Assembly: GCA_964016885.1 (NCBI GenBank)
Contig: OZ024742.1
Location: 184,140,001 to 184,204,000, forward strand
Direction of reading: 5' to 3'
Origin: Eledone cirrhosa
Taxonomy: Eukaryota
Length of the DNA: 64,000 bases
The notes under the pieces are model-generated. The model had not been told where the DNA came from and did not search any database. It saw nothing but the letters and a program-made list of their open reading frames with translations. How positions within the stretch are numbered: the stretch's first letter is position 1; the number at the start of each line of letters is the position of its first letter. Below, one piece after another: positions 621 through 36,313 of this stretch. A program made the translations under genes and the position numbers.

Positions 621-722
621 CTCGTATCTATATACTTGTTTAGATACAAATATAATGAGAAAAGGGAGCAAGGAGAAATATGAAAGCAAGGATAGTAAGG
701 AGAGTATATATATATACATATC

Positions 723-770
<48 letters not shown>

Positions 771-773
<3 letters not shown>

Positions 774-1270
774 CTTATTCCTTTAGCGTTCGACCGCCCC
801 CCTCCCCCCACACTTATCCCCCACTAACACCACTAACACACCCCTCCTTTTCACCGCCCACCCCACACTAACAATACTAACACCTCCACTCCACCCCTCA
901 TCTGACCACCCTTCCCCAACTAACATACTAACATCCCTTCCCTCCCCTCTTCTCCTCCTCCCCCTCCTTATCACATGCACACACGCACCCACTTACACCA
1001 CCCACCCCCACGCAACTAACATCACTAACACCCTCCAACCCCACGCACACGTACCCCCACACCCTCGTACACCACCAACTCTACACACCCTACCCCCACT
1101 AACCCCCACTCACACCTGCATTCCACCCCTCCCCACCTCCCGTATATTAACACCCACTAACACCTCTTCACCAAACTACACACACACCAGTACACCACAC
1201 TCCCTCCATAGAACCACACACACTCTTCTCTCCCCGCTCCACACTCACTCATCCCACTAACACCCCACTA

Positions 1271-1305
<35 letters not shown>

Positions 1306-2257: not shown

Positions 2258-2341
2258 TATATATATATATATATATATATATTACTCAATACCGAGTACT
2301 CATTCCTCTCAGTTGTCAACCACATACGGATATATGTATAT

Positions 2342-4018: not shown

Positions 4019-6487
4019 ATGTGTATATGCTTTGTATCTGTACAAGTGTATATGCAGTTATTACATATTGAGGTTTTGGAATGTTTTACATATTTTTACT
4101 GTTCCATTCATGGATTGTACTTGTAATTTCCTATCTAGTAGTGTTCTTTCTGGTTCTGTGAAGCCCAGGTTTTCAAGATTTGTATTGAGGCAGTTACTAA
4201 CATATCCCAGTGCCCCAGTAATCACAGGTATCAATCTGAAGGTATAGTCAGGGTGGAGTATCTGCAGATTTCCCATTAGTTCTGCATATATATTCTCCTT
4301 TTCGCTAATCCCACTACTGTGCATGTCTTCTTTTCCCTGTCCCATATCATTATATCTAGTCTGTTATACCTGCCTTTTATTTGGGGTTTTTACTGGAACA
4401 TTCCACCAGTACACTTTAATATTATGTATATGTATGTCTTCCATATTGCTGTAGCTTTTAATGTGTTTATTGTCGGGGCTATCTTTTCTACGGATTGCAT
4501 TGTACAGTGTTTTGGCCACTACATCATGCCTCATAGGTAGATAGTACCGCGATGACATCTTTGGACAGCTGCTTATGACATGGGTGACATCTTCGATGTT
4601 AATTCTGCTGAATCTGCACATGTTGTCAGATCTAGGTATTATGCCTGCATTCCTATCTCTTTTATGAATCAGGTATTTCGTGTTAATCTCCTGTTTTGGG
4701 ATTGCAAAAGCGTATCCTTCAAAGTGAGAGCCAATATAGCGGTTGCTGATCCAAGATAGACTACTTTGCTTATCTATATTACTCTCACTCTGGAGCTTCC
4801 TGGCAACATATCCATGCATGATCTTTTGCTGATTCACTGCGGTACTGCTGGGCAATTTCCCTGGGTGTGAGTTTTTGATTATCTTGCAGGGAATATCTTT
4901 CAAGTAGTTCCTTCCCAACTCTCATAATTGTGTCTGTCTCATGCAGATAGACTTGCTCGATAGAAGGGCTCCTACGCTTGGATGTTCGTAAATGTTGTCG
5001 GAGGGACATGATGCGACACTCAAATGCTGTCTGGACTGCTGTTAGGTCTCTGCCTCCCTGCTAACGTTTCAAGTAGAGGCGGTCTATATCACTGTGGAAG
5101 TTTCCGATGTTGTTTACAATTTTTCGAGTTTTAACATCAATTGCTCGGATGTCGTCTATCGTTCAATCGAGTGTTCCAAACGTTGTTGTTAGGACAGGCA
5201 CAGTAAACACATTGTGAGCCACTGTTTTATTGTGCGCAACTAGTTCCGATGACCATATTTTTTTTAATTGGCTGTAATATTCCCTGGTTACGCGTTCCTT
5301 ATTACAAATACCATTATAGGATATATTCTCATCTTTCCCCAGATATCTGTAGCAGTCCTCGTCAAATATCGACGAAACGGTTAGGCCATTGATAAAAATG
5401 TTGCTAGATTGGGTTGTAGTTTTTCCCCGCTTCACAGTCATATTTGGCCAAACTCAGTTCCTATATCCTTTGAGAATGTTATAACCGGAAGATTTTTCTT
5501 CATCCTATTTATGTTCTTGGCATAGAGTTTCAGGTCATCCACAAAGAAATTATGGATGAAGTTCGTATTTCTGTCCTCCTGTGAGCCAATGATGTATATT
5601 TCACATTTCTTGAGCAGAAAGGACAAGGAGTTTAATGACAAGATAAATAGTAGCACACAGAGACTGTCTCCTTGAAATATACCCCTGTGATATTCTATTT
5701 TATCAGTGAAAATAGAGTCCTCCTCTGTTTTTAACTTTAGGATAGTAGCCCAAGAAGAAGACAGCTTCTCTATGGCTCTGATAATAATGTCTGGAATTTA
5801 ACAAGTCGGAGGGCCTCTATCATCCGAAAGTAGGGAACAGAATCAAAAGCTTTCCTGTAGTCCAGCCAGACTGTAGCCATATTCCTCCTAAGTTGTTGTA
5901 CCACCGACATCGCAGTTTTGTTGGTTAGGAGTTGTTCAGCACACCTACAAACACCTTTCTTTCCAGTTGCTTGTTCATCTGTGATGATGTTATTATTTTC
6001 ACAGTGATCTTGGAGAAATAGGTTCAGGCAGGCTGTATATATCTTATACATCAGGTTCTGGCATGCAATGGGTCGGTAGTTCTTTGCCAAGTGGGTATCT
6101 TTGTTCTTTGGAACCAGTAATGTTTGTGCTAATGTTAACCATTCTGGTAGATGTGTATCTCCCTTGAGAGCTTGTTGGTAGAGGTCGATAAGATACATCC
6201 GATAGAATATCAGTTTTTTGTACCAGTAGCCGACAATCAAATGTCTTCCTGGTGTTTTCTTATCTTGGAGTTTTCCTATCACAGTCTCAAGGGTATCCTC
6301 ATTTATTTCGTATCATTTTGTTGTAGTGTAGGAGCAATAGTTCTTTTGGATTTCTTTTAGCCACACTGCATCTTGGTTGAAATTCTTCTTTTCACCCCAT
6401 ATTTTTCTCCAGAGGGAAGCTATGTCTTTCTGGGATGGGGCCTCAGTGATATCTATTACTTTGTCCTTCATATCTCTATAGAGATAT
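4019..6487 (-). mobile_element. Dong/R4-clade non-LTR retrotransposon, family C, 5'-truncated pseudogenised copy (RT, zinc knuckle, RLE)
   Basis: NYRPIACQNLMYK, WLDYRKAFDSV, GIFQGDSL, FFVDDLKLY, HVISSC, MRHDVVAK, GTVKICKTF. Many frameshifts. Confidence 0.9.
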
Positions 6488-6635
6488 CATGATGTTATTA
6501 TTTTCACAGTGATCTTGAATAAAAAGGTTTAGGCAGGATCTATACATCTTATACATCAGGTTTTGGCATGCAATGGGTCGGTAGCTTTTTGCCAAGTGGG
6601 TGCCTTTGTTCTTAGGGACCAGTATTGTTTGTGCT
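6488..6635 (-). mobile_element. Extra RT-region fragment of a Dong-C sister copy fused to the 5' end of the 4019-6487 copy
   Basis: Homologous but not identical to ~5983-6130 (AQTILVPKNKGTHLAKSYRPIACQNLMYK). Abuts (TATG)n. Confidence 0.8.
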
Positions 6636-6648
6636 GTATGTGTGTGTG

Positions 6649-6680
<32 letters not shown>

Positions 6681-6685
6681 TGTAT

Positions 6686-7090
6686 TATGCCAAAGGGCAG
6701 CGGAACTCAGGAGAGTCAACGGCCATCCAATAATGTTTTTTTTTATTTTTGGGGTGAGAGATTCCTCGTCTTCATTCAGGCATCTCTCTATGAGAAGGTC
6801 ACTCATATAAATCTTGCGACTTCGTTTGCATCTAATAATGTAGACCAGTTCTTTTGGGGCAAATGCATTCGATGTTCAGAGAGTGGGAGTAGCCCCGTAC
6901 AAAGCCTTTGCTCACTTAAAAAAATCTTCAAGCACAGGCATCGCTTGATATGTGACATTTATTGCGATGCATGGCATTGCTGGCCATAGGCAAGTCGCTA
7001 ACAGGACTAAAAAGCCACATCCGTGATACTCATGCTTAAGTATCAAGCGATGGCATTACACGAAATCGAGTTGCAACCATCATCATCATG
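6686..7090 (+). mobile_element. Diverged sister family of the 610-bp non-coding (TATG)n-associated retroposon, 5'-truncated, with (CAT)n tail
   Basis: Shares ordered blocks with 7184-7790: gagtcaaYggccatcca, gagaagg, gagagtggga, gcctttgctcact, gcacaggcat, ggactaaaa, cgagttg. Flanked by (TATG)n. Confidence 0.7.
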
Positions 7091-7093
7091 TAC

Positions 7094-7124
<31 letters not shown>

Positions 7125-7183
7125 TGTATGTATGTATGTATGTATGTATGTATGTATGTATGTACGTATGTACATGTGTATGT

Positions 7184-7790
7184 CAGGTCACCACTTGGTG
7201 CTACTGGTAACATGTATCCCAGTACAACCTGTCTCATGGTCGGGTCGTTGGCGACTAAACTGGCAACCCCACTAAGGTTTCTTGGTGAGGAGGGTGACTT
7301 TGGACATCCTGCAGGACTAAAAACAAAACCTGTCAAAGGGCAAAGGAGCTCTTAAGAGTCAATGGCCATCCAAAATCACCGGGAGAGATGACCCCTTAGC
7401 CTTTGTCAAGGCAGAATTCTAGGAGAAGGAAAACTCTGATATAACACCTGCAACCCTGATGGTATCCAATGATGTTGACTTGTTCTTCTTTTTGGTAAAT
7501 ATCATCTTGGTTAAGAGAGTGGGACTGGCTTTGTGCAGTGCCTTTGCTCACTATAAAAGCTTCACGGCACAGGCATTGCTTTGTATCTGGAGATCTCTCT
7601 GCACTTGTCATTACATGGTACCATGGGCCCAGCACTATGTGTCAATAATTGTCACAAGTGTAGTGTTTGTACCAGAGTTTTCAAGTTGCTGGCTGGACTA
7701 AAAAGTCACACTCGTTCAGCGTATCGGTAGGGGTTCTCCTACATGGTTATAAAGTAGTGGCCGTACTCGAAAACGAGTTGGCAGCCACCA
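7184..7790 (+). mobile_element. ~607-bp non-autonomous retroposon ('element B'), full length, in (TATG)n
   Basis: 13-bp TSD tacatgtgtatgt (7171-7183, 7791-7803). Three further near-identical copies. Contains ctaggagaaggaaaactctga, a motif I recall from RTE-type 5' UTRs. 3' terminal hairpin. Confidence 0.85.
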
Positions 7791-8099
7791 TACATGTGTA
7801 TGTATGTGTGCGTGTGTGCGTTTAATTTTCTCTGTAATTTCCTTGGTGTTTAAGTGTTTACTATTTAATACTAATGATGTGTACTTTTCTTCAAAATTCT
7901 GTTCTTTGATATTGTATGTATGTATAGGCCCATAACACCTGCTGAAGTCGTAGAGGCGCCGTCATGACATACGGCGTGTCTTGGATACTTTTAACTTGGC
8001 GGAACCCATCTTCTCTCCAGGTCGGAACACAGCCGATTTCTTCCAGGGGATGAGAGAGAGTGTGAAAGGGAGGAAGTAAGATGTAGATATAGAGGAAGA

Positions 8100-8225
8100 A
8101 TCGAGTCCTGTACTGGACTGGTACTTTTTTTATCGATCTAGAAAGGATAAAAAGCAAAGTTGAGACCCGGAATGAATTCCGCAAAGTATTCTATCTGATA
8201 TTCAAAGGACTCTGCCAATACACCA
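8100..8225 (-). mobile_element. Diverged tRNA-SINE
   Basis: ctggtacttt...tcga...ggataaaaagcaaagt...gccaatacacc aligns with the other SINE copies. Confidence 0.6.
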
Positions 8226-9224
8226 CACATTTCTTTGTATACAGCGAGATTAAGATTTGAACCGCAAAGAAATATCGCAAACCATCTCGTATGCGATACC
8301 TTGAGCTATTTCTTCCAGCTCTTTATAAGTGTCTTCGCTGATTCATTAACGATAAGCTAAAGACAGAAGTCCAGGCCACTAGAAATAAGACTTATGCCAT
8401 ATTTAACCAGAAAAACTAACAAGTACAGAATGTTGGTAAGTTTCAATGAGGTGAGACAAAGATAACTGAACAACGTTAAAGCAGAATATATTTGACAATA
8501 AGAAACCTAGGGCCCATGGTGACAGTCAAGAAAGAAAAAATCAGATAACGTTATTCTAGGATTTGTGGCAAATTAAAACATTAGCTTTCTAAATTTCTAC
8601 CTAAGCATGCGCAGTGAATTTAAGTTGAAGATAATTGGAACATATCGTTCATCATTTTTAATGTAATACCATATCTACTAAAAATAACTATATGCTAATT
8701 ATGCAGCTTCATGCAACTCAGACATTTAAATTCTGGTGTAATTGCCTCGGGGAGATTTAAAATAGTTGTTGAAATATCTTAAGAAATTATAAAACGTTAA
8801 TAGAAAATCGTTTTGAAGCAATTCTTTTTATTATTATCAAATGGCTACATCTTACACACGATTTAGTTAAATAAAATCCAACTATGAAACCTATATTTCA
8901 GCAAAATTTTGCTTTCTTTGAGAATTGAATGAATGAATTGAATGAAGTCAATTTTTTATACTTGTTTAGCTATGGTTTTATTATGTCAATTATATTTTAC
9001 AATCAGAAGTTATATAACAGTGGAAACATTAAAAAAAAGACAAAAACAAAATTGAATAATGAAAAAACAAGGAGGAAATGGTAAAGAAGGGCAGATCTGG
9101 CTGTATAGGAATGTAGAGGAAAGGACTATAAATGCTATAAATGTGAAGAAAAGGAGGAAAAGAGCAAAGTTAGGCAGAAGGAAAAAGAGAGGGACGGGGA
9201 GAGGGTGACAGACTCTGTGTCTAG

Positions 9225-9700
9225 GTCGGGGTGGTGCTTCGGCTGCACACTGCAAAGGTATTTTTGCGAACGATGGCCAGCGACACCCGCTGCAACAGCC
9301 ACCCCCACCACTCGGGGCTCCTTCCTCAGATGGGCTGCTGACATTCCGGTTTTACGGAAGAGCTCGGCTGTACGGTGTACGAAGAGACCTGGGGTCTCGA
9401 CGGTGACTGGTGCAAAGAGGAAACGGCCGGACAAGCTCCGGTATTTGCTTGTATCCTGTCCTCTGCATTGCGGGTCGCGGCCCCGAGGTTTGTGGCCGAA
9501 TCGACTATGCTAGATGCAGAGAACGTGTCATAACATGTTGCGTCCCAGATGAGGGATTTACCTCTTTGAATAGATCTGGGCGCTTGCTGTCACCACGGTC
9601 GAGGCCTCCAGTTGTAATGAGAAGCTGGCTGAATCCAGGCTCCTTCTCAATATGTCATTGAGATGGTGTTGGTCCAAGCCAGACACGATCCACCTGAAGA
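9225..9700 (-). mobile_element. CRE-clade non-LTR retrotransposon remnant (restriction-like endonuclease domain)
   Basis: Frameshifted translation HHLNDILRRSL...LE/GLDRGDSKRPD/GKSLIWDATCYDTF...KYRSL...FAPVTVETPG...LQRVSLAIVRKN matches the CRE RLE pattern. Confidence 0.8.
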
Positions 9701-10602
9701 AAAATCTGCACTTGATGTCGTTGCAGTTACTTTGGACAATTGTATACTGGGTAACAGAGAGGCCTTCACCAGTCCAATTGGCCAGCGTCTGCTACAGTTC
9801 TAGGGTCACACCTATGACCTTACTATCATGAGTCCAACACCCTAACTACCAGGTCGTATGTCTTTGTGTAGTGTAAAAGTAGTACAGTCCAATAATTTGA
9901 ATATTTCCAATGTGTCCCTACGTCATCCTTTCATGTTGCATCGTATTCCAATATATCCGTAATCCGTCCAGCCTATCACTTTAGTACATTAGAACGTCCC
10001 CAGAACACATCCCTGTATGTGATATATATCTCTTTACACAAATAGATCTTATCACACCGGCAGACATTAGAGAAAACGTTTCATCTTTATTCAAGAAATT
10101 TCCTCTCCTCTTGGCATCAGTGAACAATTTTCATTTTCTTTATTCTTTCTCCTTAGATAACCTCCTCTCCATCTCAGTCGCTTAACACCTGTGAAATCGG
10201 TATAATTTCAGGACTTCGTCCAAGATGTGGAAGCATGGAGAGACGGTCGTAAAACGACCAATTTAACTCTTAACAAAACTGGGTTTTTTTTTTTATTGTG
10301 GTCGAATTTACAGTTCTAGACAGATAGATTCCTTCTCCAGCAGTCTGGCTTCTCGTTTGGATGTAATTGGTATAAAAACAACGATCATGAACATTCTCAA
10401 ACACCAATTTAAATACGTTTATGACGTCTCGTAGTCTATTGTAAGCGGAAATAAAGATTAGACAATCACTGCTTACCTCAGACTTTAGTGTCTTTACGTC
10501 TATGTATTAAGATTGTTTGATGTTGTCCCCTCGTAAGACCTTCCACTGGTGGCACCACAGTAAATTAGAAAGGTTGTCTGCATCATGATATTTTTGTCGT
10601 AG

Positions 10603-10960
10603 GTGTTGCGGTTGGTGGTAGTGGTGGTGGTGGTGGCGGCGGCGGCGGCGGCGGTGGTGGTGGTGGCGGCGGCGGCAGCGACAGTTGTCGTTTCTGTTAT
10701 TGCTATTTTAGTTGTTTATGGTGGTGGAGGTGGTGTCGTTTCTTTTGTTGCTATTTTTGTTGTTTATGGTGGTGGTGGTGGTGGTGGTGGTGGTGGTGGT
10801 GGTGGTGTCGTTTCTGGTGTTGCTATTTTAGTTGTTTATGGTGGTGGTGGTGATGTCGTTTCTGGTGTTGCTATTTTAGTTGTTTATGGTGGTGGTGGTG
10901 GTGGTGTCGTTTCTGTTGTTGCTATTTTTATCTTGTTTCTTGTCGTTGCTGTTGGTGGTA
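10603..10960. repeat. (GGT/GGC)n-based compound minisatellite
   Basis: Unit ggtggt...gtcgtttctggtgttgctattttagttgtttat recurs about five times. Confidence 0.9.
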
Positions 10961-11171
10961 ACTTTATAGTTATTTTCATCTCAATATTGCTGCTGCTGCT
11001 GTTTTAAATGATGAGGGCTATGAAGATCGGAATAATAGAGGAGGAGGCAGAAGAGGAGAAACGGTGAAGAGGATGTCAACGATTTTGTATTTTGCTGAAC
11101 TTGTTTATATTGATTTTATTGCAAATTTTTTTCACCTTTACCATTTTATTTTGTTTTGTTTTTGTTTCCAG

Positions 11172-11173
<2 letters not shown>

Positions 11174-11247
<74 letters not shown>
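11174..11247. repeat. (CT)n microsatellite
   Basis: Directly visible. Confidence 0.98.
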
Positions 11248-11250
<3 letters not shown>

Positions 11251-11907
11251 GATGGACACCAATTTTATCAGCAATTTACTCCATTTCGGCACGTTTTATT
11301 ACTTCATTAAATTGTATTTCACTAACTTTTATAATTTATTTATTTTATATATCTATTTATTTGTAAATATATATTTACTTGTTTATCTGTGTATTTATTT
11401 ATTGAGTTGATTCAATTCTAGGAAGAGAGCGAACTAACTCTATTACTGCGATGTCTAAATAAAACTTTACCATTAAATTTATATAATAAACAGTTTTGAA
11501 ATAAAATCTGAAAAGCCAACACAGACACCGTGTATTTATCAATCGCTTCGTTTCACACAACCCAGATACGTCCAAAACATACATATATATATACAAACAT
11601 ATGCACACATATATACGTCCTTCCAACACACACACACACAAACATATATACACATTCGTTCCTTCTAATATATACCTACGTAAGTCCCTTACTCTACGAA
11701 CACACACACACACACACGTCCTTTCAATACATTCACACGCATGTTCCTACCTACATACACATACAACTTTTCTAACACACGCGTACAAATGTCTCTTCCA
11801 ATACACACACATGCATTCCCTCCAATACAAAACGGACTCAATACAAAACACATACTCCTTGCACACATATACATATGTTCCTTCCAGCACTCATACGCAC
11901 GCATCAA

Positions 11908-11994
11908 TCATACATACATACATACATACATACATACATACATACATACATACATACATACATACATACATACATACATACATACATACATACA
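11908..11994. repeat. (TACA)n microsatellite (target of Dong family A)
   Basis: Directly visible. Confidence 0.98.
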
Positions 11995-14089
11995 GGTGCC
12001 TTAACCTGTTCTTACAGGTGCCTTAACCTGTTCTTACAGGATCACTGTGCTACCAACAACATCATAACACCTGAGCAAGCTGGTGGAAAGAGGGAGGTGT
12101 GGGGTTGCATAGATCACCTACTAACTAACAAAATGATTCAGGAAAAAACAACAAAGAATCGCAGAAATATGACTGTGGTGTGGCTGGACTATCAAAAAGC
12201 ATTTGATAGTGTACCTCATGGGTGGATTATTAAGGCTATACAGTTAGCTAAAGTCCCACAACCATTGGTAGCTGCTGTTGAACGCCTGACCAAGAACTGG
12301 TACACCAATTTGATCCTTAGAGGTGAGAAGGAGAAAGTTAAGACTGATAAGATACATTACCAGAAGGGCATCTTTCAGGGTGATAGCTTGTCAGTGCTAC
12401 TCTTCGTTCTCACACTGAATCCACTATCTTACCTACTCAGGAAACAGGGTGGACAAAGAAGTGGGCCCAGAAGTATCTCCCATCTTTTCTTTGTTAATGA
12501 CCTGAAGTTGTATGGGCCAAATATCAATGACATCAAGAAACAATTGAACCTCATTACACAATTTTCAACTGACATCAAAATGAAATTTGGTGAGTCCAAG
12601 TGTGCATATTTGGCAATAAAACGTGGAAGAGCTGTGCCCTCCTCTAGAAATCTAGAGATGAACGGCCTGACAATACAACTTCTGCAGTCGGGTGACAACT
12701 ACAGATATTTTGGACAGGATGAGAATGTCAGATATGATGGACCCATAAATAAGGAGAGAACCAGAACTGAATACCTCAGAAGAGTAAAGAAAATATGGTC
12801 ATCAGAACTGTCAGCATACAACAAATACATTGCCCACAATACTTATGCTGTGCCAATTCTAACGCCAACATTTGGCCTGCTGAACTGGTCATTGCAAGAA
12901 CTAAGTGAGATGGATGTTAGAACTCGAAAACTTCTCAGTGTTACTGCGAACTTTAACATCAATGGTGATGTGGATAGGTTATACTTCTCACGCAAGGAAG
13001 GTGGCCGGGGTCTAAAATCAATATTAACAACATATGAGACCCGGATAGTAACACTGAAGCAACACCTTCAACAGAGGAAAAAAGTTGGCAACCATCTTGC
13101 CCAGGTTTATGAGCATGAAAAAAAAAATATCATTAGAATAGCGACTGATCTGGAGGAGAGATATGGAATAAAGCATGATATAAATCTCTCACCCAGAGAA
13201 ATCGGAAGATCCTATTCAATGTTCAAACAAGAAAAAAATTGACCAATTTATAGAAAAAGTTGTGCATGGATACTTGAGGCGTAAAACACTGACCATAGAG
13301 GGGATAAACCACTCAAAAAGCCTGGCATGGAGTTCCGACAAGTTTATGACATCACACCTTGAGGGATATCTATATGCAATACAGGAACAAGAACTCCCTA
13401 CCAAATATCTGCTGCACAAAAGAGGCGGGCCAGCAGCTGACAATAAATGTAGGCTATGTAAAACAAAGATCGAGGATGTAAGCCACATTGTTGCCAGCTG
13501 CGAAAGAATGTCATCTCGCTACTACCTCCCCATGAGACACGATGGGATAGCTAGAACCATCTGGAACGCACTTCGGAAAACAAAATTAACAACAAACGAG
13601 GAAGAATATATTGAGACAGATGGCACTAAGGAATACTGGTGGAACCTGAAAATAAAAACTGCCACCAAATTAAAGCACAACCGGCCTGATATTGTTGTTT
13701 GGGACCACACATTGAAAACGTGTTCTGTTGTGGAGATCAGCTGCCCACTTGATGTAAACGTTGTCAGAAAAATACAGGAGAAGGAGGACATCTACGGACC
13801 ATTGATGAGGAGTTTACAAATCCAGTATCCAAGATACACCTTTAGCTTCATACCCATCATTATTGGAGCTACGGGTTATATACCAACCCACTTGACTGAA
13901 CTTGGATTTGCGGACAAAAAGCGCAGCTCCCTAATTCATAGTCTACAAATGGCTGCGATAGCTGGCACCTTCAAAATTTGCAAAACATTCTTGCGATTCA
14001 AGGGATGACAATTTCTTTTCATTTACAACCTTGCCACCAGGAAGGTGGCCGGTCAAAAAAATATACTCGAAATTAAGAGAAAGAGATAA
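11991..14089 (+). mobile_element. Dong/R4-clade retrotransposon family A, 5'-truncated, nearly intact RT-CCHC-RLE ORF
   Basis: WLDYQKAFDSVPH, GIFQGDSLS, LFFVNDLKLY (catalytic D>N), EGGRGL, CRLC...HIVASC, RHD, NRPDIV, EISCP. One frameshift in the A-run at ~13232-13238. Stop at 14008, short 3' UTR ending gagataa|(CATA)n. Confidence 0.93.
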
Positions 14090-14176
14090 CATACATACAT
14101 ACATACATACATACATACATACATACATACATACATACATACATACATACATACATACATACATTACATACATACA

Positions 14177-14693
14177 TGGTGGCTGCCAACTCGTTTTCGA
14201 GTACGGCCACTACTTTATATACATGTAGGAGAACCCCTACTGATGCGCTGAACGAGTGTGACTTTTTAGTCCAACCAGCGACTTGAAAACTCTGGTACAA
14301 ACAGTACACTTGTGACAATTGCTGACACATAGTGCTGGGCCCATTGTACCCTGTGACGACAAGTGCAGAGAGATCTCTAAATATAAAGCAATGCCTGTGC
14401 CGTGAAGCTTTTATAGTGAACAAAGGCACTGCACAAAGCCAGTCCCACTCTCTTAACCAAGATGATATTTACCAAAAAGAAGAACAAGTCAACATCATTG
14501 GATACCATCAGGGTTGCAGGTGTTATATCAGAGTTTTCCTTCTCCTAGAATTCTGCCTTGACAAATCATCTTTCCCGGTGATTTTGGATGGCCATTGACT
14601 CTTAAGAGCTCCTTTGCCCTTTGACAGGTTTTGTTTTTAGTCCTGCAGGATTCCAAAGTCACCCTCCTCACCAAGAAACCTTGGTGGGGTTGC
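14177..14693 (-). mobile_element. Element B copy, 5'-truncated
   Basis: Reverse complement of 7184-7790 lacking the first ~80 nt. (TACA)n-type repeat on both sides. Confidence 0.9.
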
Positions 14694-15068
14694 ACATACA
14701 TACATACCTACATATATACATACATACCTACATATATACATATATACCTACATACACACATACATACCTACATATATACATACATACACACATACATACC
14801 TACATATATACATACATACACACATACATATCTACATATATACATACATACACACATACATACCTACATACACACATACCTACATACCTACATACACACA
14901 TACATACCTACATATATACATACATACACACATACCTACATATATACATACATACACACATACATACCTACATATATACATACATACCTACACATACCTA
15001 CATACATACATACACATAACTACATACACACCTACATATATACATACCTACACACATACATACATACA
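14694..15068. repeat. Degenerate (TACA/TACC/CACA) compound repeat
   Basis: catacatacctacatatata-type higher-order units. Confidence 0.9.
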
Positions 15069-15334
15069 CAGACAAAAAGGTGCAAACTGTTTAAATTCCA
15101 GTTCACCCACACCACCTCAACCCACTCCCATCACCCCCATTCCAGACCTCCAATAACATTTCAGTATTTCATATTCAAGAAAATGTCAAAAAGACGTCCA
15201 AAAGTGACAATAGAGTATGAGACCGAGCTGGAGCAACCTTCCCCTCCAAAGAGAAGTTGACATACATACATACATACATACATACATACATACATACATA
15301 CATACATACATACATACATACATACATACATACA

Positions 15335-15944
15335 TGGTGGCTGCCAACTCGTTTTCGAGTACGGCCACTACTTTATATCCATGTAGGAGAACCCCTACCG
15401 ATGCACTGAACGAGTGTGACTTTTTAGTCCAGCCAGCGACTTGAAAACTCTGGTACAAACACTACACTTGTGACAATCATTGACACATAGTGCTGGGCCC
15501 ATGGTACCATGTGACGACAAGTGCAGAGAGATCTCCAGATATAAAGCAATGCCTGTGCCGTGAAGCTTTTATAGTGAGCAAAGGCACTGCACAAAGCCAG
15601 TCCCACTCTCTTAACCAAGATGATATTTACCCAAAAGAAGAACAAGTCAACATCATTGGATACCATCAGAGTTGCAGGTGTTATATCAGAGTTTTCCTTC
15701 TCCTAGAATTCTGCCTTGACAAAGGCTAAGGGGTCATCTCTCCCGGTGATTTTGGATGGCTATTGACTCTTAAGAGCTCCTTTGCCCTTTGACAGGTTTT
15801 GTTTTTAGTCCTGCAGGATGTCCAAAGTCGTCACCCTCCTCACCAAGAAACCTTGGTGGGGTTGCCAGTTTAGTCGCCAACGACCCGACCATGAGACAGG
15901 TTGTACTGAGATACATGTTACTAGTAGCAGCAACTGGTGACCTG
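15335..15944 (-). mobile_element. Element B copy, full length
   Basis: Reverse complement of 7184-7790. (TACA)n on both sides. Confidence 0.9.
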
Positions 15945-16242
15945 ACATAATACATACATACATACATACATACATACATACATACATACATACATAATAC
16001 ATACATACATACATAATACATACATACATGCATACATACATACATACATACATACATACATACATACATAATACCTACATACATACATACATAATACATA
16101 CATACATACATACATACATAATACCTACATACATACATATATACATAATACATACATACATACATACATACATAATATCTACATACATACATACATACAT
16201 ACATAATACATACATACATACATACATACATACATACATACA

Positions 16243-16272
<30 letters not shown>

Positions 16273-16273
<1 letters not shown>

Positions 16274-16828
16274 TATGATATGGGAACAGGGAGAAGAAAA
16301 CATGCACAGTAGTGGAAATTAGCTGCCCAGCAGATGCCAATATAATATCAAAGATTAGTGAAAAGGAGAATATTTATGCAGAACTGATGAGAAATCTGCA
16401 GATACTCCACCCTGATTACACCTTCAGATTTATGCCTATGATTATTGGGGCACTGGGATATGTTAGTAACTGCCTCAATACAAATCTTGAGAAGCTAGGC
16501 TTCACAGGAACAGAAAGAACACAACTAGTTAGGAAACTACAAGTACAATCCATTAATGGAACAGTAAAAATATGTAAAACATTCCAAAAATGTTGCATCT
16601 AATAACTGCATATACACATGTACAGATACAAAAAGTTTACACATGCACACATACAACTCAAAACATACACATCCACACATACAATAACATCCATATCTAC
16701 ACATGCATTTCATACATAATCTACCTAGTTGATGTTGTGTAAATTCCAATGAGAGAGTATTGTGTCTATGTTAGAAACCGACTCTCTCTCTATTGGTAAA
16801 ACTTTGTGAAATTATAAATTCAGAAGAA
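16273..16828 (+). mobile_element. Dong family C 3' end (RLE C-terminus plus 3' UTR)
   Basis: EISCPADANIISKISEKENIY...GTVKICKTFQ. Ends agaagaa|(CATA)n. Confidence 0.9.
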
Positions 16829-16894
16829 CATACATACATACATACATACATACATACATACATACATACATACATACATACATACATACATACA

Positions 16895-17161
16895 TCGAGG
16901 ATGTAAGCCACATTGTTGCCAGCTGCGAAAGAATGTCATCTCGCTACTACCTCCCCATGAGACACGATGGGATAGCTAGAACCATCTGGAACGCACTTCG
17001 GAAAACAAAATTAACAACAAACGAGGAAGAATATATTGAGACAGATGGCACTAAGGAATACTTGCGATTCAAGGGATGACAATTTCTTTTCTTTTACAAC
17101 ATTGCCACCAGGAAGGTGGCCAGTCAAAAAAAATATACTCGAAATTAAGAGAAAGAGATAA
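16895..17161 (+). mobile_element. Dong family A derivative, 5'-truncated and internally deleted
   Basis: Matches ~13469-13637 joined directly to ~13990-14089. (TACA)n on both sides. Confidence 0.9.
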
Positions 17162-17239
17162 CATACATACATACATACATACATACATACATACATACAT
17201 ACATACATACATACATACATACATACATACATACATACA

Positions 17240-18769
17240 TACAGATACCTAGGGATATATGAGAATATATCCTATGATGGTATCTGTAAAAAGGAACACG
17301 TAACCAGGGAATATTACACCAGATTAAGAAAAAATGGTCATCTAAAATATCTGCGCACAATAAAACAGTGGTTCACAATGTGTTTTTGCTTTGCCTGTCC
17401 TAACAGCAACGTTTGGAATATTCGAGTGGACAACAGACGAAATCCGAACAATTGATGTTAGAGCCCGAAAAATCCTAAACAACACTGGAAACTTCCACAT
17501 CAACAGTGACATAGACCGCCTCTACTTGAAACGTAAGCAGGGAGGCAGAGGCCTAACATCAGTCCAGACAGCATTTGAATGTCGCATCATGTCCCTCCGA
17601 CAACATTTACGAACCCCGAAGAGTAGGAGCCCATCTATCGAGCAAGTCTATCTGCATGAGGCAGATAAGATCATGAGTGTTGGGAAGGAACTACTTGAAA
17701 GATATTCCCTGCATGATAATCAAAAACTCACACCCAGGGAAATTGCCCAGCAGTACCGCAGTGAATCTATGTATGAAAAATTGCATGCTTATCAACAAAA
17801 TATCATGCATGGATATGTTGCCAGAGTGAGAGTAATATAGATAAACAAAGTAGTCTATCTTGGACCAACAACCACTATATTGGCTTCCACTTTGAAGGAT
17901 ACGCTTTTGCAATCCAAGAACAGGAGATTAACACGAAATACCTGATTCATAAAAAAGATAGGGATGCAGGCAAAATACCTAGATCTGACAACATGTGCAG
18001 ATTCAGCAGAATTAACATCGAAGATGTCACCCATGTCATAAGCAGCTGTCCAAAGATGTCATCACGGTACTATCTACCTATGAGGCATGATGTAGTGGCC
18101 AAAACACTGTACAATGCAATCCGTAGAAAAGATAGCCCCGACAATAAACACATTAAAAGCTACAGCAATGTGGAAGACATACATATACATAATATTAAAG
18201 AGTACTGGTGGAATGTTCCAGTAAAAACCCCAATAAAAGGCAGGTATAACAGACTAGATATAATGATATAGGACAGGGAAAAGAAGGCATGCACAGTAGT
18301 GGAAGTTAGCTGCCCAGCAGATGCCAATATAATATTGAAGATTAGCAAAAAAGAGAATATCTATGCAGAACTAATGGGAAATCTGCAGATACTCCACCCT
18401 GACTATACCTTCAGATTGATACCTGTGATTACTGGGGCACCGGGATATGTTAGTAACTGCCTCAATACAAATCTTGAAAACCTGGGCTTCACAGAACCAG
18501 AAAGAACTCGACTAGTTAGGAAATTACAAGTACAATCCATTAATGGAACAGTAAAAATATGTAAAACATTCCAAAACTTCAGCATGTAATAACTGCATAT
18601 ACACATATACAAATACAAAACATATGCACATGCACAATATAACTCAAAACATACACATACACACATTCAATAACATCCATACCCGCAAATACATGCAGAC
18701 ATGCAGGCATGTCTACCTAGTTGATGTCTAAATTCCAATGAAAGAGTCTTGTGTCTATTTTAGAAACTC

Positions 18770-18800
<31 letters not shown>

Positions 18801-18840
18801 ATTGGTAAAAAAAAATTATAAAATTATAAAACCAGAAGAA
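17240..18840 (+). mobile_element. Dong family C, 5'-truncated (RT thumb, zinc knuckle, RLE, 3' UTR)
   Basis: KQGGRGL, HVISSC, MRHD, EVSCP, KICKTF. Ends agaagaa|catacat. Inverted homologue of 4019-5350. Confidence 0.9.
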
Positions 18841-18870
18841 CATACATCTATACAGCGAGATTTGAACGAT

Positions 18871-19421
18871 TGTTCCGTAATTGGCGAAATAAATCATACG
18901 ACCACATACGCTGACGGATGGCCTCATAGATAAGCAATTTCCCTTGTACTTTACTTCCCAGTGTATTTTACTTCCTTTGTTTTGCGGTCTCATGTCACCA
19001 AATTGCCTGAAGAATACCGTTTTCTAAGAGCCATCTGCTTATTGTCAACGACAACAAAATTCTCATAGTCTGCTCTCGGCTGTCCAACAACCAGTTTGGT
19101 TCAGTTGACGACATAGATCAGAACAACGTAGTTTGCCAACAGTCACACTCCAACCCACTGGGTTCAGCCCTTTCGGCCAGCGAGACAAGTCAGTCATACT
19201 CCTGTTCGATTCCAACAAAAGTTAGTTCCATACAACTGTTCAGTCGATTACTACGCCATCCACGCCAAACCAATCACACAAACATTACACACAAAATCAC
19301 TGTGACCCTTTGTTTTTCCTATTATCATAATAACATCGACATAAGTTATTTCTTAATAAAAATTATTAAAGTAGCAGCGTTTGTTGTTGTTCATTGAGTA
19401 TCGGTAATTTCACTTTTAACA
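18871..19421 (+). other. Unassigned insert, possible solo LTR
   Basis: TG...CA boundaries can be drawn and there is an internal AATAAA (~19355). No TSD found. Confidence 0.25.
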
Positions 19422-19683
19422 TTCAGCTTTCAACAACTGATTATGGCAACCACACATCTCGATTCACTGAGACACACAAGCAATTGATTTGCCCATAAGT
19501 CATAGACTTTCACACAGTGCTTTATATGGGAAATAGTAACTCATGAAATCGCCCATCAAGCCAACAGCTACAACTACAATTTCTGCTACATACAATGAAC
19601 AACTGACCAACCAAATCACTACTACAATCTACACATCTGGTCACAACAAACATTCATCTTAACAGCCGCAATACATACATACA

Positions 19684-20963
19684 ATAGAAACGATGCTTGG
19701 TGACAGTACAACCAGAACTCTTCAATATAAGCTGATCACCCTCAAACAAGAAGTGAGAGCAGTCAGCAAGAAACGCTGATACCTGAAGAAGGTAGATGAA
19801 AGAAAAGTACTTAATAAAAGATTCAAACGAAACCAAACATCAGTCTATAGAGAAGGACAAAGTAATAAATGTCACTGAGGCCCCATCCCAAAAAGACATA
19901 GATTCCTTCTGGAGAAAAATATGGGGTGAAAAGATGCAGTGTGGCTAAAAGAAATCCAAAAGAAATATTGCTCATACACTACAACAAAAACATGCAAAAT
20001 AAATAAGGATACCTTTGAGACTGTGATAGGAAAACTCCAAGATAAGAAAACACCAGGAAGAGACTTGATTGTCGGCTACTGGTACAAAAAACTGATATTC
20101 TATCAGATTTATCTTATCGACCTCTACCAACAAGCTCTCAAGGGAGATACACATCTACCAGAATGGTTGACATTAGGACAAACAATACTGGTTCCGAAGA
20201 ACAAAGACACCCACTTAGCAAAAAACTACCGATCCATTGCATGCCAGAACCTGATGTATAAGATGTATACAGCCTGCCTGAACCTATTTCTCTAAGATCA
20301 CTGTGAAAACATCATCACAGATGTACAAGCAGCTGGAAAGAAAGGTGGGGGGGGGGGGTGAACAACTCCTAACCAATAAAACTGCGATGTCAGAGGTACG
20401 ACAACTTAGGAGGAATATGGCTACAGTCTGACTGGACTACAGGAAAGCATTTGATTCTGTTCCCCATTCTTGGATGATAGAGGCCCAGGCATTATTATCA
20501 GAGCCATAGAGAAGCTGTCTTCTTCTTGGGCTACTATCCTAAAGTTAAAAACAGAGAAGGAGGACTCTATTTTCATTGATAAAATAGAATATCACTGGGG
20601 TATATTTCAGGGAGACAGTCTCTGTGTGCTACTATTTATCTTGTCATTAAACTCCTTGTCCTTTCTGCTCAAGAAATGTGAAGGATACATCATTGGTTCA
20701 CAGGAGGACAGAAATACGAACTTAATTCATAATTTTTTTGTGGATGACCTGAAACTCTATGCCAAGAACATAAATGGGATGGAGGAAAATCTACACATCC
20801 ACACATACAATAACATCCATACTTGCATACACATGCATGCAGTCATGCATACATATCTACCTAGTTGATGTTGTATAAATTCCAATGAGAGAGTCTTGTA
20901 TCTATGTTAGAAACCGATTCTCTCTCTATTGGTAAAAATGTATTAAATTATAAAGCCAAAAGA
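19684..20963 (+). mobile_element. Dong family C, RT N-terminal half joined directly to the 3' UTR
   Basis: PSQKDIDSFWRKIWG, TPGRDLIVGYWYKK, GIFQGDSL, FFVDDLKLY, then a jump at ~20790 to the 3' UTR. Begins after atacatacat and ends aagaa|(CATA)n. Confidence 0.88.
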
Positions 20964-21321
20964 ACATACATACATACATAAATAATACATACATATACAT
21001 ATATACCTACATACATACATACATAAATAATACATACATATACATATATACCTACATACATTTATACATCCTTTCCAACACATATGAATGTTGTTTACTT
21101 TCTTAAAGCCATCAAATAAATCAAGTTATCTACTTTTACAACTGAAATCAAACATTTAATTTCCCTCAATTAATGTGTCATTGATCAGAGGCTTGTACAA
21201 ACATAAATAAATAAATCAGTAAACAGATTATAAAATAAATAGAAACCTGTATAAGCAAGTTGTATTTTATTGTACTATTTTATGTATTTTCTTTAATAAA
21301 AGGCAAAAGATTTATCTACTT

Positions 21322-21826: not shown

Positions 21827-22016
21827 TGGTGAATTGGCAGTATCGGTTGAGGGTCGGACGCCATGCTTTGACGCATAGAGTTACGGCCCTTGCCATTCTG
21901 AGTTCAAATTCCGCCGAGGTTAACTTTGCCTTTCATCCTTACGGGGTCGATAAAATAAAGTACCAGTAGTACACTGGGAAATTGCTGGCCTTGTGCCAAA
22001 AGTAGAAACAATTATT
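21827..22016 (+). mobile_element. tRNA-SINE, full length
   Basis: A/B boxes and central domain. Flanking direct repeat attatttcatg. Confidence 0.9.
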
Positions 22017-22217
22017 TCATGTATTTACATTTCTGATACAAATGTCAGGTTTGGACTCAAAAGTTCAATGAACCAAATCAAGTAGGCTCATCATTCCCTC
22101 CCCTCACCTAGGGGGGGGCTTGATATCAACCACTTTAGTGTAAAGTATTTAATCCATCACTCTGCCCAAACCCTCACCACTCAACCACTTTTAATATGAA
22201 AGGCAGTTATTAATACA

Positions 22218-22388
22218 TAATTATTTCTATTTTGGGCACAGGGCCAGCAATTACCCAGTGTATTACTGGTACTTTATTTTATCGACCCCGTAAGGATGAA
22301 AAGCAAAGTTAACCTCGGCGGGATTTGAACTCAGATAAAGGGACGTAACTCTGTGCTGCAAAGCATGGCGTCCGACTCTCTACCGATA
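22218..22388 (-). mobile_element. tRNA-SINE
   Basis: Reverse complement of 21827-22016. Confidence 0.88.
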
Positions 22389-22537
22389 CATAATATAACT
22401 AGGTCAGTTGTACAGCATAAAGTATTTACTTTATACATTTTTGGATTCAAAACCTGCTAAGGTCAGTTTTATTTTCCATCCCTCATTCTTAATCTTGATA
22501 TCAACAATAGTAATACACCACATGTGCTTGTATGTAT

Positions 22538-35716: not shown

Positions 35717-36313
35717 TGGTGGCTGCCAACTCGTTTTCGAGTATGGCCACTACTTTATATCCATGTAGGAGAACTCCTACCGATGCGCTGAACGAGTGTG
35801 ACTTTTTAGTCCAGCCAGCGACTTGAAAACTCTGGTACAAACACTACACTTGTGGCAATTATTGACACATAGTGCTGGGCCCATTGTACCCTGTGATAAC
35901 AAGTGCAGAGAGATCTCCAGATATAAAACAATGCCTGTGCCGTGAAGCTTTTATAGTGGGCAAAGGCACTGCACGAAGCCAGTCCCACTCTCTTAACCAA
36001 GAAGATATTTACCAAAAAGAAGAACAAGTCAACATCATTGGATACCATCAGAGTTGCAGGTATTATATCAGAGTTTTCCTTCTCCTAGAATTCTGCCTTG
36101 ACAAAGGCTAAGGGGTCATCTCTCCCGGTGATTTTGGATTGCCATTGACTCTTAAGAACTCCTTTGCCCTTTGACAGGTTTTGTTTTTAGTCCTGCAGGA
36201 TGTCCAAAGTCACCCTCCTCACCAAGAAACCTTGGTGGGGTTGCCAGTTTAGTCGCCAACGACCCGACCATGAGACAGGTTGTACTGGGATACATGTTAC
36301 CAGTAGCACCAAC
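35717..36313 (-). mobile_element. Element B copy, slightly 5'-truncated
   Basis: Reverse complement of 7184-7790. tacataca on the left and (CATA)n-type repeat on the right. Confidence 0.9.

What the first reader, a model, noticed from the sequence alone, without database searches (positions are those of the whole stretch)
4019..21060. Two Dong/R4 retrotransposon families nested in (TACA)n microsatellites
Seen: at least seven Dong pieces from two distinct families (A: 11991-14089, 16895-17161; C: 4019-6487, 6488-6635, 16273-16828, 17240-18840, 19684-20963). Every preserved 3' end reads ...AA|CATACAT, insertions start next to TACA repeat, and all copies share one orientation relative to the repeat strand. 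Established: Dong/R4-clade elements carry a C-terminal CCHC plus restriction-like endonuclease and are sequence-specific (rDNA, (TAA)n). Inference: these endonucleases recognise (TACA)n, a specificity I do not recall being described, and build kb-scale arrays by repeated insertion.
Basis: partly seen in the sequence, partly recalled or inferred. Interest (0 to 1): 0.72.

Follow-up and report, generated by a model that had tools for sequence, protein, structure and literature searches.

The report
Dong-type retrotransposons targeting ACAT microsatellites
Two families of Dong-type jumping genes, plus short hitch-hiker elements, sit inside (ACAT)n repeats in one fixed direction all over this octopus-like genome, so they likely aim at that repeat, a target known for another retrotransposon group but not found described for this one.

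Summary
Window 4019-21060 contains two pieces of family A and five of family C at the stated places. All are joined by (ACAT)n and read ACAT on their sense strand.

Across the genome, the 5' ends of copies cut short at many different points abut (ACAT)n:
- family A: 18 of 20 copies
- family C: 15 of 20 and 21-24 of 29 copies
- random positions: about 2%

The antisense repeat follows 0 of 93 element 3' ends. (ACAT)n is therefore the insertion target, not only a tail.

One natural A copy has an intact 1173-aa ORF. It carries a predicted Myb/SANT-like three-helix N-terminus, an RT, a CCHC motif and an endonuclease domain that folds like R2's. It has no zinc fingers. A aligns end to end with a (TAA)n-flanked Dong-like family in the same genome, but A and C fall in a separate, well-supported branch.

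(ACAY)n is a published target of Waldo (R1 clade). For Dong/R4 I found only (TAA)n and rDNA in print. I could not check Repbase or Dfam. Which protein part reads the repeat is untested.

Earlier notes of this scan made the same claim on other windows of this genome.

Verdict: a new variant of a known kind.

The parts
4019..6482 (-). Family C copy, cut short at both ends (reference positions 1373-3864), 84% identical to the reference copy
6489..6635 (-). Small family C fragment (ref 1718-1864). Its 5' side abuts (TACA)n on the minus strand
6635..6689 (.). (TGTA)n, which reads (TACA)n on the strand of the neighbouring elements
6690..7094 (-). S3-type short non-coding element. Its 5' end reads GATGGTTGCAACTCGATTTCG... 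directly after (ACAT)n
7095..7183 (.). (TATG)n, which reads (CATA)n on the minus strand, between S and S3
7182..7789 (-). Full-length S element (1-611, 97%)
11909..11994 (.). Pure (CATA)21 with non-repetitive sequence upstream. This is the 5' flank of the A copy
11991..14089 (+). Family A copy, 5'-truncated (ref 2136-4231, 97%), with a 22-bp tandem duplication at 11991-12040. It encodes the RT C-terminal part (P0002) and CCHC + endonuclease (P0001), with one frameshift near 13184-13242
14089..14177 (.). (ACAT)22 between the A 3' end and the S 5' end
14178..14693 (+). S element, positions 1-530 (3' part missing), followed by degenerate (ACAT)n at 14694-15068
15260..15335 (.). (ACAT)19
15336..15946 (+). 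Full-length S element (GGTGGCTGCC...GGTGACCTG), used as the S reference
15945..16272 (.). (ACAT) array of about 84 units
16270..16827 (+). Family C 3' fragment (ref 3504-4046), ending ...CAGAAGA|ACAT
16828..16895 (.). (ACAT)17
16888..17160 (+). Family A fragment (ref 3584-3758 joined to 4120-4231, an internal deletion)
17161..17243 (.). (ACAT)20
17240..18853 (+). Family C copy, 5'-truncated (ref 2482-4046). Only two ACAT units follow its 3' end
19683..20962 (+). Family C copy (ref 1212-2350 joined to 3880-4046, an internal deletion), preceded by ATACATACATACA at 19671-19683
20964..21069 (.). Degenerate (ACAT)n after the last C copy
35718..36313 (+). It has (ACAT)2.5 upstream and mixed ACAT/AT repeat downstream

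Best explanation
Families A and C are non-LTR retrotransposons with Dong/R4 architecture (predicted Myb-like N-terminus, RT, CCHC, restriction-like endonuclease) whose copies lie inside (ACAT)n arrays in one orientation, and they likely integrate there by target-primed reverse transcription after recognising the repeat.

Shown:
- the architecture;
- (ACAT)n on both flanks, whatever the 5' truncation point;
- the fixed strand;
- copy numbers in the hundreds (A) to thousands (C, S);
- one natural A copy with an intact ORF.

Inferred:
- the protein binds (ACAT)n duplex, probably through the N-terminal Myb-like domain working with the CCHC/endonuclease part;
- the endonuclease nicks the (ATGT)n strand;
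- the freed 3' end primes cDNA synthesis at the RNA 3' end, perhaps helped by pairing with a few ACAU units;
- incomplete copying produces the 5' truncations.

Each insertion splits an array into two halves, and both remain targets. Every new copy also carries repeat at its 3' side. Elements of different ages therefore likely pile up into trains many kilobases long, like the one in this window. The short S-type elements would use the same or a similar enzyme; their partner is unknown.
For: 3' flanks (sequences).
- A: 30 of 30 ends are followed by at least one sense ACAT unit, 23 of 30 by two or more.
- C: 26 of 28, and 21 of 28.
- S: 35 of 35, and 14 of 35.
- The antisense repeat follows 0 of 93 ends.

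5' flanks.
- A: 18 of 20 genome copies abut (ACAT)n, at reference positions from 1 to 3407. Five of them are full-length (corrected).
- C, 3'-anchored set: 15 of 20.
- C, 5'-anchored set: 21 of 29 by the script's criterion. Three more are seen.
- C, copies starting at reference position 1: 13 of 13 are preceded by (ACAT)n plus 0-10 extra bases.
- Background is 2.06%. Binomial tails are 8e-29, 7e-22 and 4e-36, the last computed with 24 of 29.

Upstream of A's 5' arrays, by my reading of the sequences printed (the script's own labels were cruder): 7 of 16 are unique or other DNA, 8 are S or S-like 3' ends, and 1 is a C 3' end.

Protein.
- Intact 1173-aa ORF, P0003.
- Pfam RVT_1 and zf-RVT.
- Invariant CCHC, P-D and K in 39 relatives.
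- The C-terminal model (pLDDT 93) matches the R2Tg and R2Bm endonuclease regions at Z 21.8 and 19.5 (rmsd 2.9 and 3.2 A; 225 and 226 residues aligned). The next match scores Z 8.1.
- There is no C2H2 motif, and only 4 Cys in the first 470 residues.
- The N-terminal model is a three-helix bundle whose best matches are mostly Myb/SANT DNA-binding domains (top Z 6.1).

Relatives.
- A is 29% identical end to end to family T of the same genome. T is flanked by (TAA)n in 30 of 30 loci.
- T is 34% identical end to end to a Bombyx protein.

Independent sequencing runs show word depth rising about 65-fold from the 5' to the 3' end of A. They also show loose ends reading CATACATAC before many internal positions.
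Against: - No empty (pre-insertion) allele was seen. One search gave no joint that skips the element, so insertion into a pre-existing array is inferred from flanks, not observed.
- Within a microsatellite neither the nick sites nor a target-site duplication can be read.
- Two of 20 A copies and 5 of 29 to 5 of 20 C copies showed no (ACAT)n at the 5' point I located. Some of these are alignment breaks that I did not resolve.
- About half of the upstream arrays are tails of other elements, so much of the 'target' is made by the elements themselves.
- S and some A copies sit in (AT)n or mixed repeats, so specificity is not strict.
- No tree with named Dong/R4 references was made.
- The Myb-like fold matches are weak (Z no higher than 6.1), and Pfam found no Myb domain.
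Confidence: 0.85

Rival explanations
1. The targeting is real, but it would come mainly from RNA-DNA pairing. The element RNA ends in a few ACAU units. A nuclease with only loose AT-rich preference nicks many places, and only nicks inside (ATGT)n can prime efficiently. The protein would then not read the repeat.
For: Every 3' end is followed by at least one ACAT unit, even where the rest of the flank is (AT)n or another AT-rich repeat (S: 35 of 35 with one unit or more but only 14 of 35 with two or more; rows L083, L091, L097, L102). Three unrelated 3' ends (A, C, S) share nothing but the ACAT junction.
Against: The same genome holds a related family that is just as strictly tied to (TAA)n (30 of 30). 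A, C and that family share a homologous N-terminal DNA-binding-type domain. That pattern fits protein-encoded specificity that changed between lineages. Neither model was tested directly.
Confidence: 0.2
2. (ACAT)n is only an element-encoded 3' tail. The repeat seen upstream of copies is the tail of a neighbour, and trains arise by chance or by the reverse transcriptase jumping between RNAs, so no target is chosen.
For: By my reading, 9 of 16 arrays upstream of A belong to an S, S-like or C 3' end. In the random sample, 7 of 22 (ACAT)n arrays abut an S, S2 or C end.
Against: By the same reading, 7 of 16 arrays upstream of A are bounded by unique or other DNA, for example L035 and L047, and window 11909. 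Copies cut at positions 1 to 3407 all abut the repeat. Landing next to another element's tail in 75-90% of cases, against a 2% background, is itself targeting. A and S are younger than C, so they arrived separately.
Confidence: 0.05
3. Passive build-up: the elements insert anywhere but survive, or are duplicated, mainly in microsatellite-rich regions of low recombination.
For: This has been proposed for Waldo-A and Waldo-B near CA repeats in Drosophila (PMC3812793, passage read).
Against: The junctions are exact to the base and always on one strand of the repeat (0 of 93 antisense). Loci are spread over many chromosomes. Passive survival does not predict strand polarity.
Confidence: 0.03

Closest known systems
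Dong (Bombyx mori), DongAg, DongBg and ostracod Dong; R4 clade
   Same: One ORF with RT, then CCHC, then a restriction-like endonuclease. No N-terminal zinc fingers; a Myb/SANT-like N-terminus. Insertion into a microsatellite in a fixed direction, with 5'-truncated copies (PMC3812793, PMC7998251, passages read). A (TAA)n-flanked relative lives in the same genome.
   Different: The target is the tetranucleotide (ACAT)n, with some AT-rich variants, instead of (TAA)n. A and C fall on the other side of a 99/99-supported split from the (TAA)n family and the insect sequences in the endonuclease-domain tree. I detected no 5' HDV-like ribozyme, which is published for Dong and R4. My methods also failed on the (TAA)n family, so this says little (PMC3774820).
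Waldo (WaldoAg1, WaldoAg2, WaldoFs1; R1 clade)
   Same: It targets (ACAY)n microsatellites, which include (ACAT)n (PMC3812793, passage read).
   Different: Waldo carries an N-terminal APE-type endonuclease. A and C carry a C-terminal restriction-like endonuclease and gave no APE domain hit in Pfam. The shared target would be convergence.
R2 (R2Bm, R2Tg)
   Same: The closest solved structures. RT matches at E = 1e-26 to 4e-14, and the endonuclease region at Z 21.8 and 19.5. The likely mechanism, target-primed reverse transcription, is taken from R2.
   Different: R2 has N-terminal zinc fingers and inserts in 28S rDNA. A has neither. Sequence similarity is confined to the RT core, and the endonuclease part was not found by sequence alone.
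Other microsatellite-specific non-LTR families: Togen (TG)n near NeSL, some HERO families, Kibi (TC)n, Koshi (TTC)n, Mino (AC)n
   Same: The same life style: a microsatellite serves as a safe landing site (PMC4640811, PMC3812793, passages read).
   Different: Different clades and different repeat motifs. None of the passages I read names ACAT for an element with a restriction-like endonuclease.

Membership tests
[quoted passage not shown] | Single ORF with RT followed by CCHC and a PD-(D/E)XK restriction-like endonuclease at the C-terminus | tested here: met
   P0003 is 1173 aa with RVT_1 at 488-730 and zf-RVT at 938-1003. CCHC lies at 984-1001 and RPD at 1062. C, C, H, C, P-D and K are invariant in 39 sequences. 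The fold matches the R2 endonuclease region at Z 21.8 and 19.5.
[quoted passage not shown] | No N-terminal zinc fingers | tested here: met
   No C2H2 pattern; only 4 Cys in the first 470 residues.
[quoted passage not shown] | Diverged Myb/SANT-like domain near the N-terminus (PMC7998251) | tested here: inconclusive
   The model of residues 6-125 has three helices with pLDDT of 95 or more in the core. The best matches are Zeste, TRF1, DMAP1, c-Myb and other Myb/SANT domains, but Z is no higher than 6.1. Pfam gave no Myb hit.
[quoted passage not shown] | Groups with named Dong/R4 sequences in an RT phylogeny | tested here: inconclusive
   No named Dong or R4 sequence could be brought in. Indirect evidence: A is 29% identical end to end to the (TAA)n-flanked family T, and T is 34% identical to a Bombyx protein of unknown name. 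The endonuclease-domain tree has no outgroup.
[quoted passage not shown] | Insertion into one repeated target in a fixed direction | tested here: met
[quoted passage not shown] | HDV-like self-cleaving ribozyme at the exact 5' end (PMC3774820) | tested here: inconclusive
   No Rfam match at the 5' ends of A, C or S. My own descriptor scan gave 0 hits. Rfam also found nothing at the 5' end of the (TAA)n family, to which I did not apply the descriptor, so the methods may be blind to such ribozymes.
Waldo / R1 clade | N-terminal APE-type endonuclease | tested here: not met
   Pfam listed only RVT_1, zf-RVT and one weak unrelated hit. The nuclease is C-terminal and restriction-like.
R2 clade | N-terminal zinc finger(s) and insertion in 28S rDNA | tested here: not met
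   No zinc-finger pattern. The flanks are microsatellite, not rDNA.

The most novel reading that the evidence does not exclude
A and C mark an old branch of Dong-like elements (43% identical to each other) that moved from (TAA)n to (ACAT)n. Together with thousands of short S-type riders they make, spread and re-use their own landing repeat, so most long (ACAT)n arrays of this genome would be their product. Intact ORFs exist for both an ACAT-type element (L032) and a TAA-type element (L215) in one genome. This pair would allow the residues that read a microsatellite to be mapped, and perhaps re-aimed, for site-directed insertion tools of the R2 kind.
Probability: 0.45. Interest if true: 0.6.

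Novelty: new variant of a known kind. Interest (0 to 1): 0.5.

Why it matters
Site-specific retrotransposons with a restriction-like endonuclease are the model for how a mobile element picks a harmless landing site. R2-type proteins are now being developed for targeted gene insertion.

This genome holds two related lineages with intact ORFs and different microsatellite targets, (TAA)n and (ACAT)n. That is a ready-made comparison for finding the specificity determinants.

The finding also bears on the repeat landscape of octopus-type genomes. Dong-R4 elements are reported among the most active LINEs in Octopus vulgaris, with no mention of a target in the passages I read (PMC13282606). In my small random sample, 3 of the 4 (ACAT)n arrays of 9 or more units touched one of these elements. 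Microsatellite content and element content are therefore coupled.

For a specialist this is an expected kind of variation, not a surprise.

Tried and rejected
**5' ribozyme.** Rfam found no ribozyme in L040/L041 or in short 5' stretches of S, A, C or T. My rough HDV-type descriptor gave 0 hits in A, C and S. Because Rfam also found nothing in the (TAA)n family, this says little.

**S partner.** S shares no nucleotide similarity with A or C beyond chance. Folding the last ~100 nt of A, C, S, S3 and T showed hairpins in each but no shared shape (z from -1.25 to -2.93). The partner stays unknown.

**Endonuclease by sequence.** phmmer of the window's own C-terminal part against solved structures gave only spurious hits. 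The fold search settled the question.

**Myb domain by Pfam.** No Myb hit for three N-termini at E up to 10.

**Empty site.**
- The sequencing-run search found only low-share holders (0.23-0.28) and RAD-seq runs.
- Laying four runs on the intact A locus gave no joint that skips the element. These runs are short contigs and reduced-representation reads, so this is no evidence against polymorphism.

**Automated 5' boundaries.**
- The coverage walk misplaced several ends.
- I replaced it by mapping to natural reference copies and re-inspected four A copies.
- Five C copies of 20 (L115, L119, L123, L126, L130) and five of 29 (L132, L135, L144, L154, L159) stayed without a clear (ACAT)n. I did not resolve them.

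**Literature.**
- Searches found no paper that names an ACAT-type target for an R4/Dong element.
- Kojima and Fujiwara 2003 and 2004, Repbase and Dfam are not in the library and were not seen.

**Earlier notes.** A look-up by the S sequence found nothing.

Full report
**What is in the window**

Tandem Repeats Finder lists a chain of (ACAT)n arrays between 6.6 and 21.1 kb. Self-comparison shows that the sequence between them is repeated within the window.

I mapped the window onto natural reference copies taken from elsewhere in the same genome.
- Family A lies at 12017-14097 and at 16888-17169. The second piece has an internal deletion.
- Family C lies at 4019-6482 and 6489-6635 (both minus strand), 16270-16826, 17240-18853, and 19683-20962. 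The last has an internal deletion.
- Every piece reads ACAT, never ATGT, on its own sense strand next to its ends.

- S is about 611 bp and has no nucleotide similarity to A or C. It runs GGTGGCTGCC...GGTGACCTG. Copies lie at 7182-7789 (minus), 14178-14693 and 15336-15946, and again at 35718-36313.
- A shorter relative (S3 type) lies at about 6690-7094 (minus).

**Tail or target?**

The window is G000:C3:184140001-184204000 of a 3.0-Gb assembly.
- The last 689 bp of A found 363 candidates; the 40 scored were 94-100% identical.
- A 701-bp piece of C found 6226 candidates.
- S found 3885 candidates.

The 3' flanks are uniform (sequences):

| Family | Ends examined | At least one sense ACAT unit | Two or more units |
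|---|---|---|---|
| A | 30 | 30 | 23 |
| C | 28 | 26 | 21 |
| S | 35 | 35 | 14 |

The antisense repeat follows 0 of these 93 ends. A 3' repeat alone could still be an element-encoded tail, so the 5' side decides.

For A, I fetched 20 copies with 6.5 kb of upstream sequence.
- 18 of 20 abut (ACAT)n exactly where homology to a full-length copy stops.
- That point lies anywhere from reference position 1 to 3407.
- Five of the 18 are full-length.
- The exceptions are L044 and L046 (corrected for L038 and L045).

For C:
- 15 of 20 copies anchored at the 3' end abut the repeat.
- 21 of 29 copies anchored further 5' abut it by the script's criterion.
- Three more (L133, L134, L149) show it at the end located.
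- 13 of 13 copies that start at reference position 1 are preceded by (ACAT)n plus 0-10 extra bases.
- I did not resolve the remaining C copies. Some are plainly internal rearrangements.

For S:
- 29 of 29 copies start at the same base and end with ...GGTGACCTG.
- All 29 upstream flanks end in AT.
- The flanks are (ACAT)n, (AT)n or mixtures, and in two cases another AT-rich repeat.

As background I took twenty 10-kb stretches at arbitrary round coordinates.
- (ACAT)>=3 covers 0.22% of their bases.
- 2.06% of strand-aware positions have two or more units within the 40 nt upstream.
- The binomial tails for the three 5' counts are 8e-29, 7e-22 and 4e-36. The last was computed with 24 of 29.

A repeat that sits upstream of copies cut at any internal point cannot be encoded by the element. 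It is the insertion site.

**Is the upstream repeat just a neighbour's tail?**

I read the sequences printed; the script's own labels were cruder. Among the 16 A copies with a 5' array:
- the array is bounded upstream by an S or S-like 3' end in 8;
- by a C 3' end in 1;
- by unique or other DNA in 7.

In the random sample, 7 of 22 arrays touch an S, S2 or C end. Three of the four arrays of 9 or more units do so.

So the elements land both in free arrays and, often, in the tails of earlier elements. That is how trains such as this window's arise.

Identity to the reference copies fits repeated arrival:
- C: median 88.9% (n=20) and 91.1% (n=29)
- A: median 97.4% (n=20)
- S: median 97.5% (n=29)

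In the window, old C pieces are interleaved with younger A and S.

Contigs and reads of other runs laid on a full-length A copy add two points.
- Summed word depth climbs from about 8,000 at the 5' end to about 540,000 at the 3' end. This is the gradient expected from 5' truncation.
- Loose ends read CATACATAC before many internal positions.
- No joint skips the element, so I have no empty allele. Direct proof of insertion into a pre-existing array is still missing.

**What the elements are**

One A copy (locus L032) has an uninterrupted ORF of 1173 codons, P0003.
- Pfam finds RVT_1 (488-730) and zf-RVT (938-1003), and no APE nuclease.
- The best solved relatives by sequence are R2 proteins, over the RT only (E = 1e-26 to 4e-14).
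- CCHC lies at 984-1001 and RPD at 1062.
- In an alignment with 38 relatives, the four CCHC ligands, P-D and a downstream K are invariant.

The model of the last 283 residues has pLDDT 93. It aligns with the C-terminal region of R2Tg at Z 21.8 (rmsd 2.9 A, 225 residues) and of R2Bm at Z 19.5 (rmsd 3.2 A, 226 residues). The next row scores Z 8.1, and it and the rows below it are mostly other PD-(D/E)XK nucleases.

At the N-terminus:
- There is no zinc-finger pattern.
- Residues 6-125 are predicted as a three-helix bundle with pLDDT of 95 or more in the core.
- The best structural matches are mostly Myb/SANT DNA-binding domains: Zeste, TRF1, DMAP1, c-Myb. The scores are low, with top Z 6.1, and Pfam sees no Myb domain.
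- This is the layout reported for R4/Dong elements: RT plus restriction-like endonuclease, a diverged Myb-like N-terminus, and no zinc fingers (PMC7998251, passages read).

C is collinear with A over 1155 residues at 42.9% identity, but all C copies I examined have broken frames.

**Relation to canonical Dong-like elements**

I searched the genome with the endonuclease part of a Bombyx homologue.
- It gave 42,309 candidates. All 150 scored belong to one family, T.
- (TAA)n follows T about 150 nt after the match in 30 of 30 loci.
- A full-length T copy is flanked by (TAA)n on both sides and carries an intact 1216-aa ORF, P0124.
- A and T align end to end at 29% identity. T and the Bombyx protein align end to end at 34%.
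- In the endonuclease domain, A is about 50% identical to C, 28% to T, and 30-34% to a second family, T2, found beside T.

I built a maximum-likelihood tree of that domain (44 rows, midpoint drawing only, no outgroup).
- A 99/99-supported branch separates two groups. One holds T, T2, the Bombyx sequence and the other named arthropod (mostly insect) sequences. The other holds A, a close A2 variant, C and unnamed relatives.
- A and C lie inside a 100/99 subclade.
- This fits one old change of target in the ancestor of A and C. The targets of the unnamed relatives are unknown, and no named Dong or R4 reference was available.
- Clade membership is therefore likely, not shown.

The best named relative of A is a hypothetical protein of Argonauta hians (67% identity over 57% of the query). 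This fits the octopus-like nature of the genome.

**How it most likely works**

By analogy with R2, whose structures are the closest solved ones, the sequence of events would be as follows.
1. The protein binds the repeat.
2. The endonuclease nicks the (ATGT)n strand.
3. The 3' hydroxyl primes reverse transcription of the element RNA from its 3' end.
4. Early termination gives 5'-truncated copies.

All four steps are inferred.

Which part of the protein reads the repeat is open. The N-terminal Myb-like domain is the published suspect for this group (PMC7998251).

A serious alternative is that pairing between a short ACAU tail and the nicked (ATGT)n strand supplies much of the selectivity. Every 3' end keeps at least one ACAT unit, even in (AT)n flanks.

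The strict (TAA)n habit of the related family T in the same nucleus argues that the proteins differ in what they recognise.

R4 and Dong are reported to begin with an HDV-like ribozyme that cuts at the exact 5' junction (PMC3774820, passages read). I found none in A, C or S with Rfam or with a rough descriptor of my own. Rfam found none in T either, so the search is uninformative.

**Comparison with what is known, and novelty**

The passages I read give the following targets:
- Dong, DongAg and DongBg: (TAA)n.
- Three Waldo elements of the R1 clade: ACAY microsatellites (PMC3812793).
- Other clades with a restriction-like endonuclease: targets such as (TG)n (PMC4640811).

Two papers on cephalopod repeats report abundant and recently active Dong-R4 LINEs. 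One counts 5 families and 1129 recent insertions in Octopus vulgaris. In the passages I read, neither mentions a target (PMC13282606, PMC8967140).

Six full-text searches found no paper that links an R4/Dong element to an ACAT-type repeat. Kojima and Fujiwara 2003 and 2004, Repbase and Dfam were not available, and the target may be noted there.

Two earlier notes of this scan, on other windows of this genome, reached the same reading (e1-9521993, e1-9524059). They are not independent evidence, and I re-tested the claim here. Other notes pointed to (TAA)n-type Dong elements in this genome. I confirmed that with family T.

**Verdict**

The targeting of (ACAT)n and related AT-rich repeats by two Dong-type families is well supported. 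The motif itself is already known as a target of an unrelated clade. The recognition mechanism is untested.

This is a new variant of a known kind. It is useful mainly because the same genome offers intact ACAT-type and TAA-type relatives for comparison.

Noticed in passing
window 7182-7789 (-), 14178-14693, 15336-15946, 35718-36313; loci L082-L110: S is a non-coding element of about 611 bp with at least 3885 candidate copies. The best 40 are 97-98% identical. All 29 copies examined share the same first and last base. They sit in (ACAT)n, (AT)n or mixed repeats. S has no sequence in common with A or C, and its autonomous partner is unknown.
   Followed up: partly
window 6690-7094 (-); loci L006, L019, L020, L029, L058, L066, L069, L070, L184: At least five further short families start directly after (ACAT)n with the same 5' module: G(A/G)TGGC, six bases, a small hairpin, TAY, then GCCAYY. 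The outer stem shows an A-T to G-C exchange between families, which hints at a conserved RNA structure. No known ribozyme family matched.
   Followed up: partly
L215 254-4707 (G000:C1:411430178-411435435); loci L185-L214: T is a very abundant Dong-like family. The genome has 42,309 endonuclease-domain candidates, and all 150 scored belong to T. (TAA)n follows the 3' end in 30 of 30 loci. Several copies have intact 1216-aa ORFs. A second family, T2, lies beside it.
   Followed up: partly
L041 (oriented) 638-2975; L142; L151-L158: S copies occur in tandem, separated by short (ACAT)n. A shorter form ending at about position 420 (...CTCTCCCGG) recurs at two loci, directly upstream of full-length A or C. 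This looks like a subfamily or a preferred break point.
   Followed up: no
window 3521-3776, 21828-22389, 28016-28395, 29020-29210, 57663-57835: Another dispersed repeat of about 190-255 bp occurs five or more times in the window at 82-96% identity, in both orientations. It is unrelated to the ACAT elements.
   Followed up: no
window 70-623 and 10603-10928: A 9-bp tandem repeat (CTCTCCTTG, about 60 copies) and a GGT/GGC-rich minisatellite with 48-120-bp periods.
   Followed up: no
L040 (oriented) about 2140-2210 and 7270-7370: The S-plus-A pair at this locus lies between two arms of an inverted repeat of about 70 bp. This suggests the (ACAT)n target sat inside a foldback-type element.
   Followed up: no
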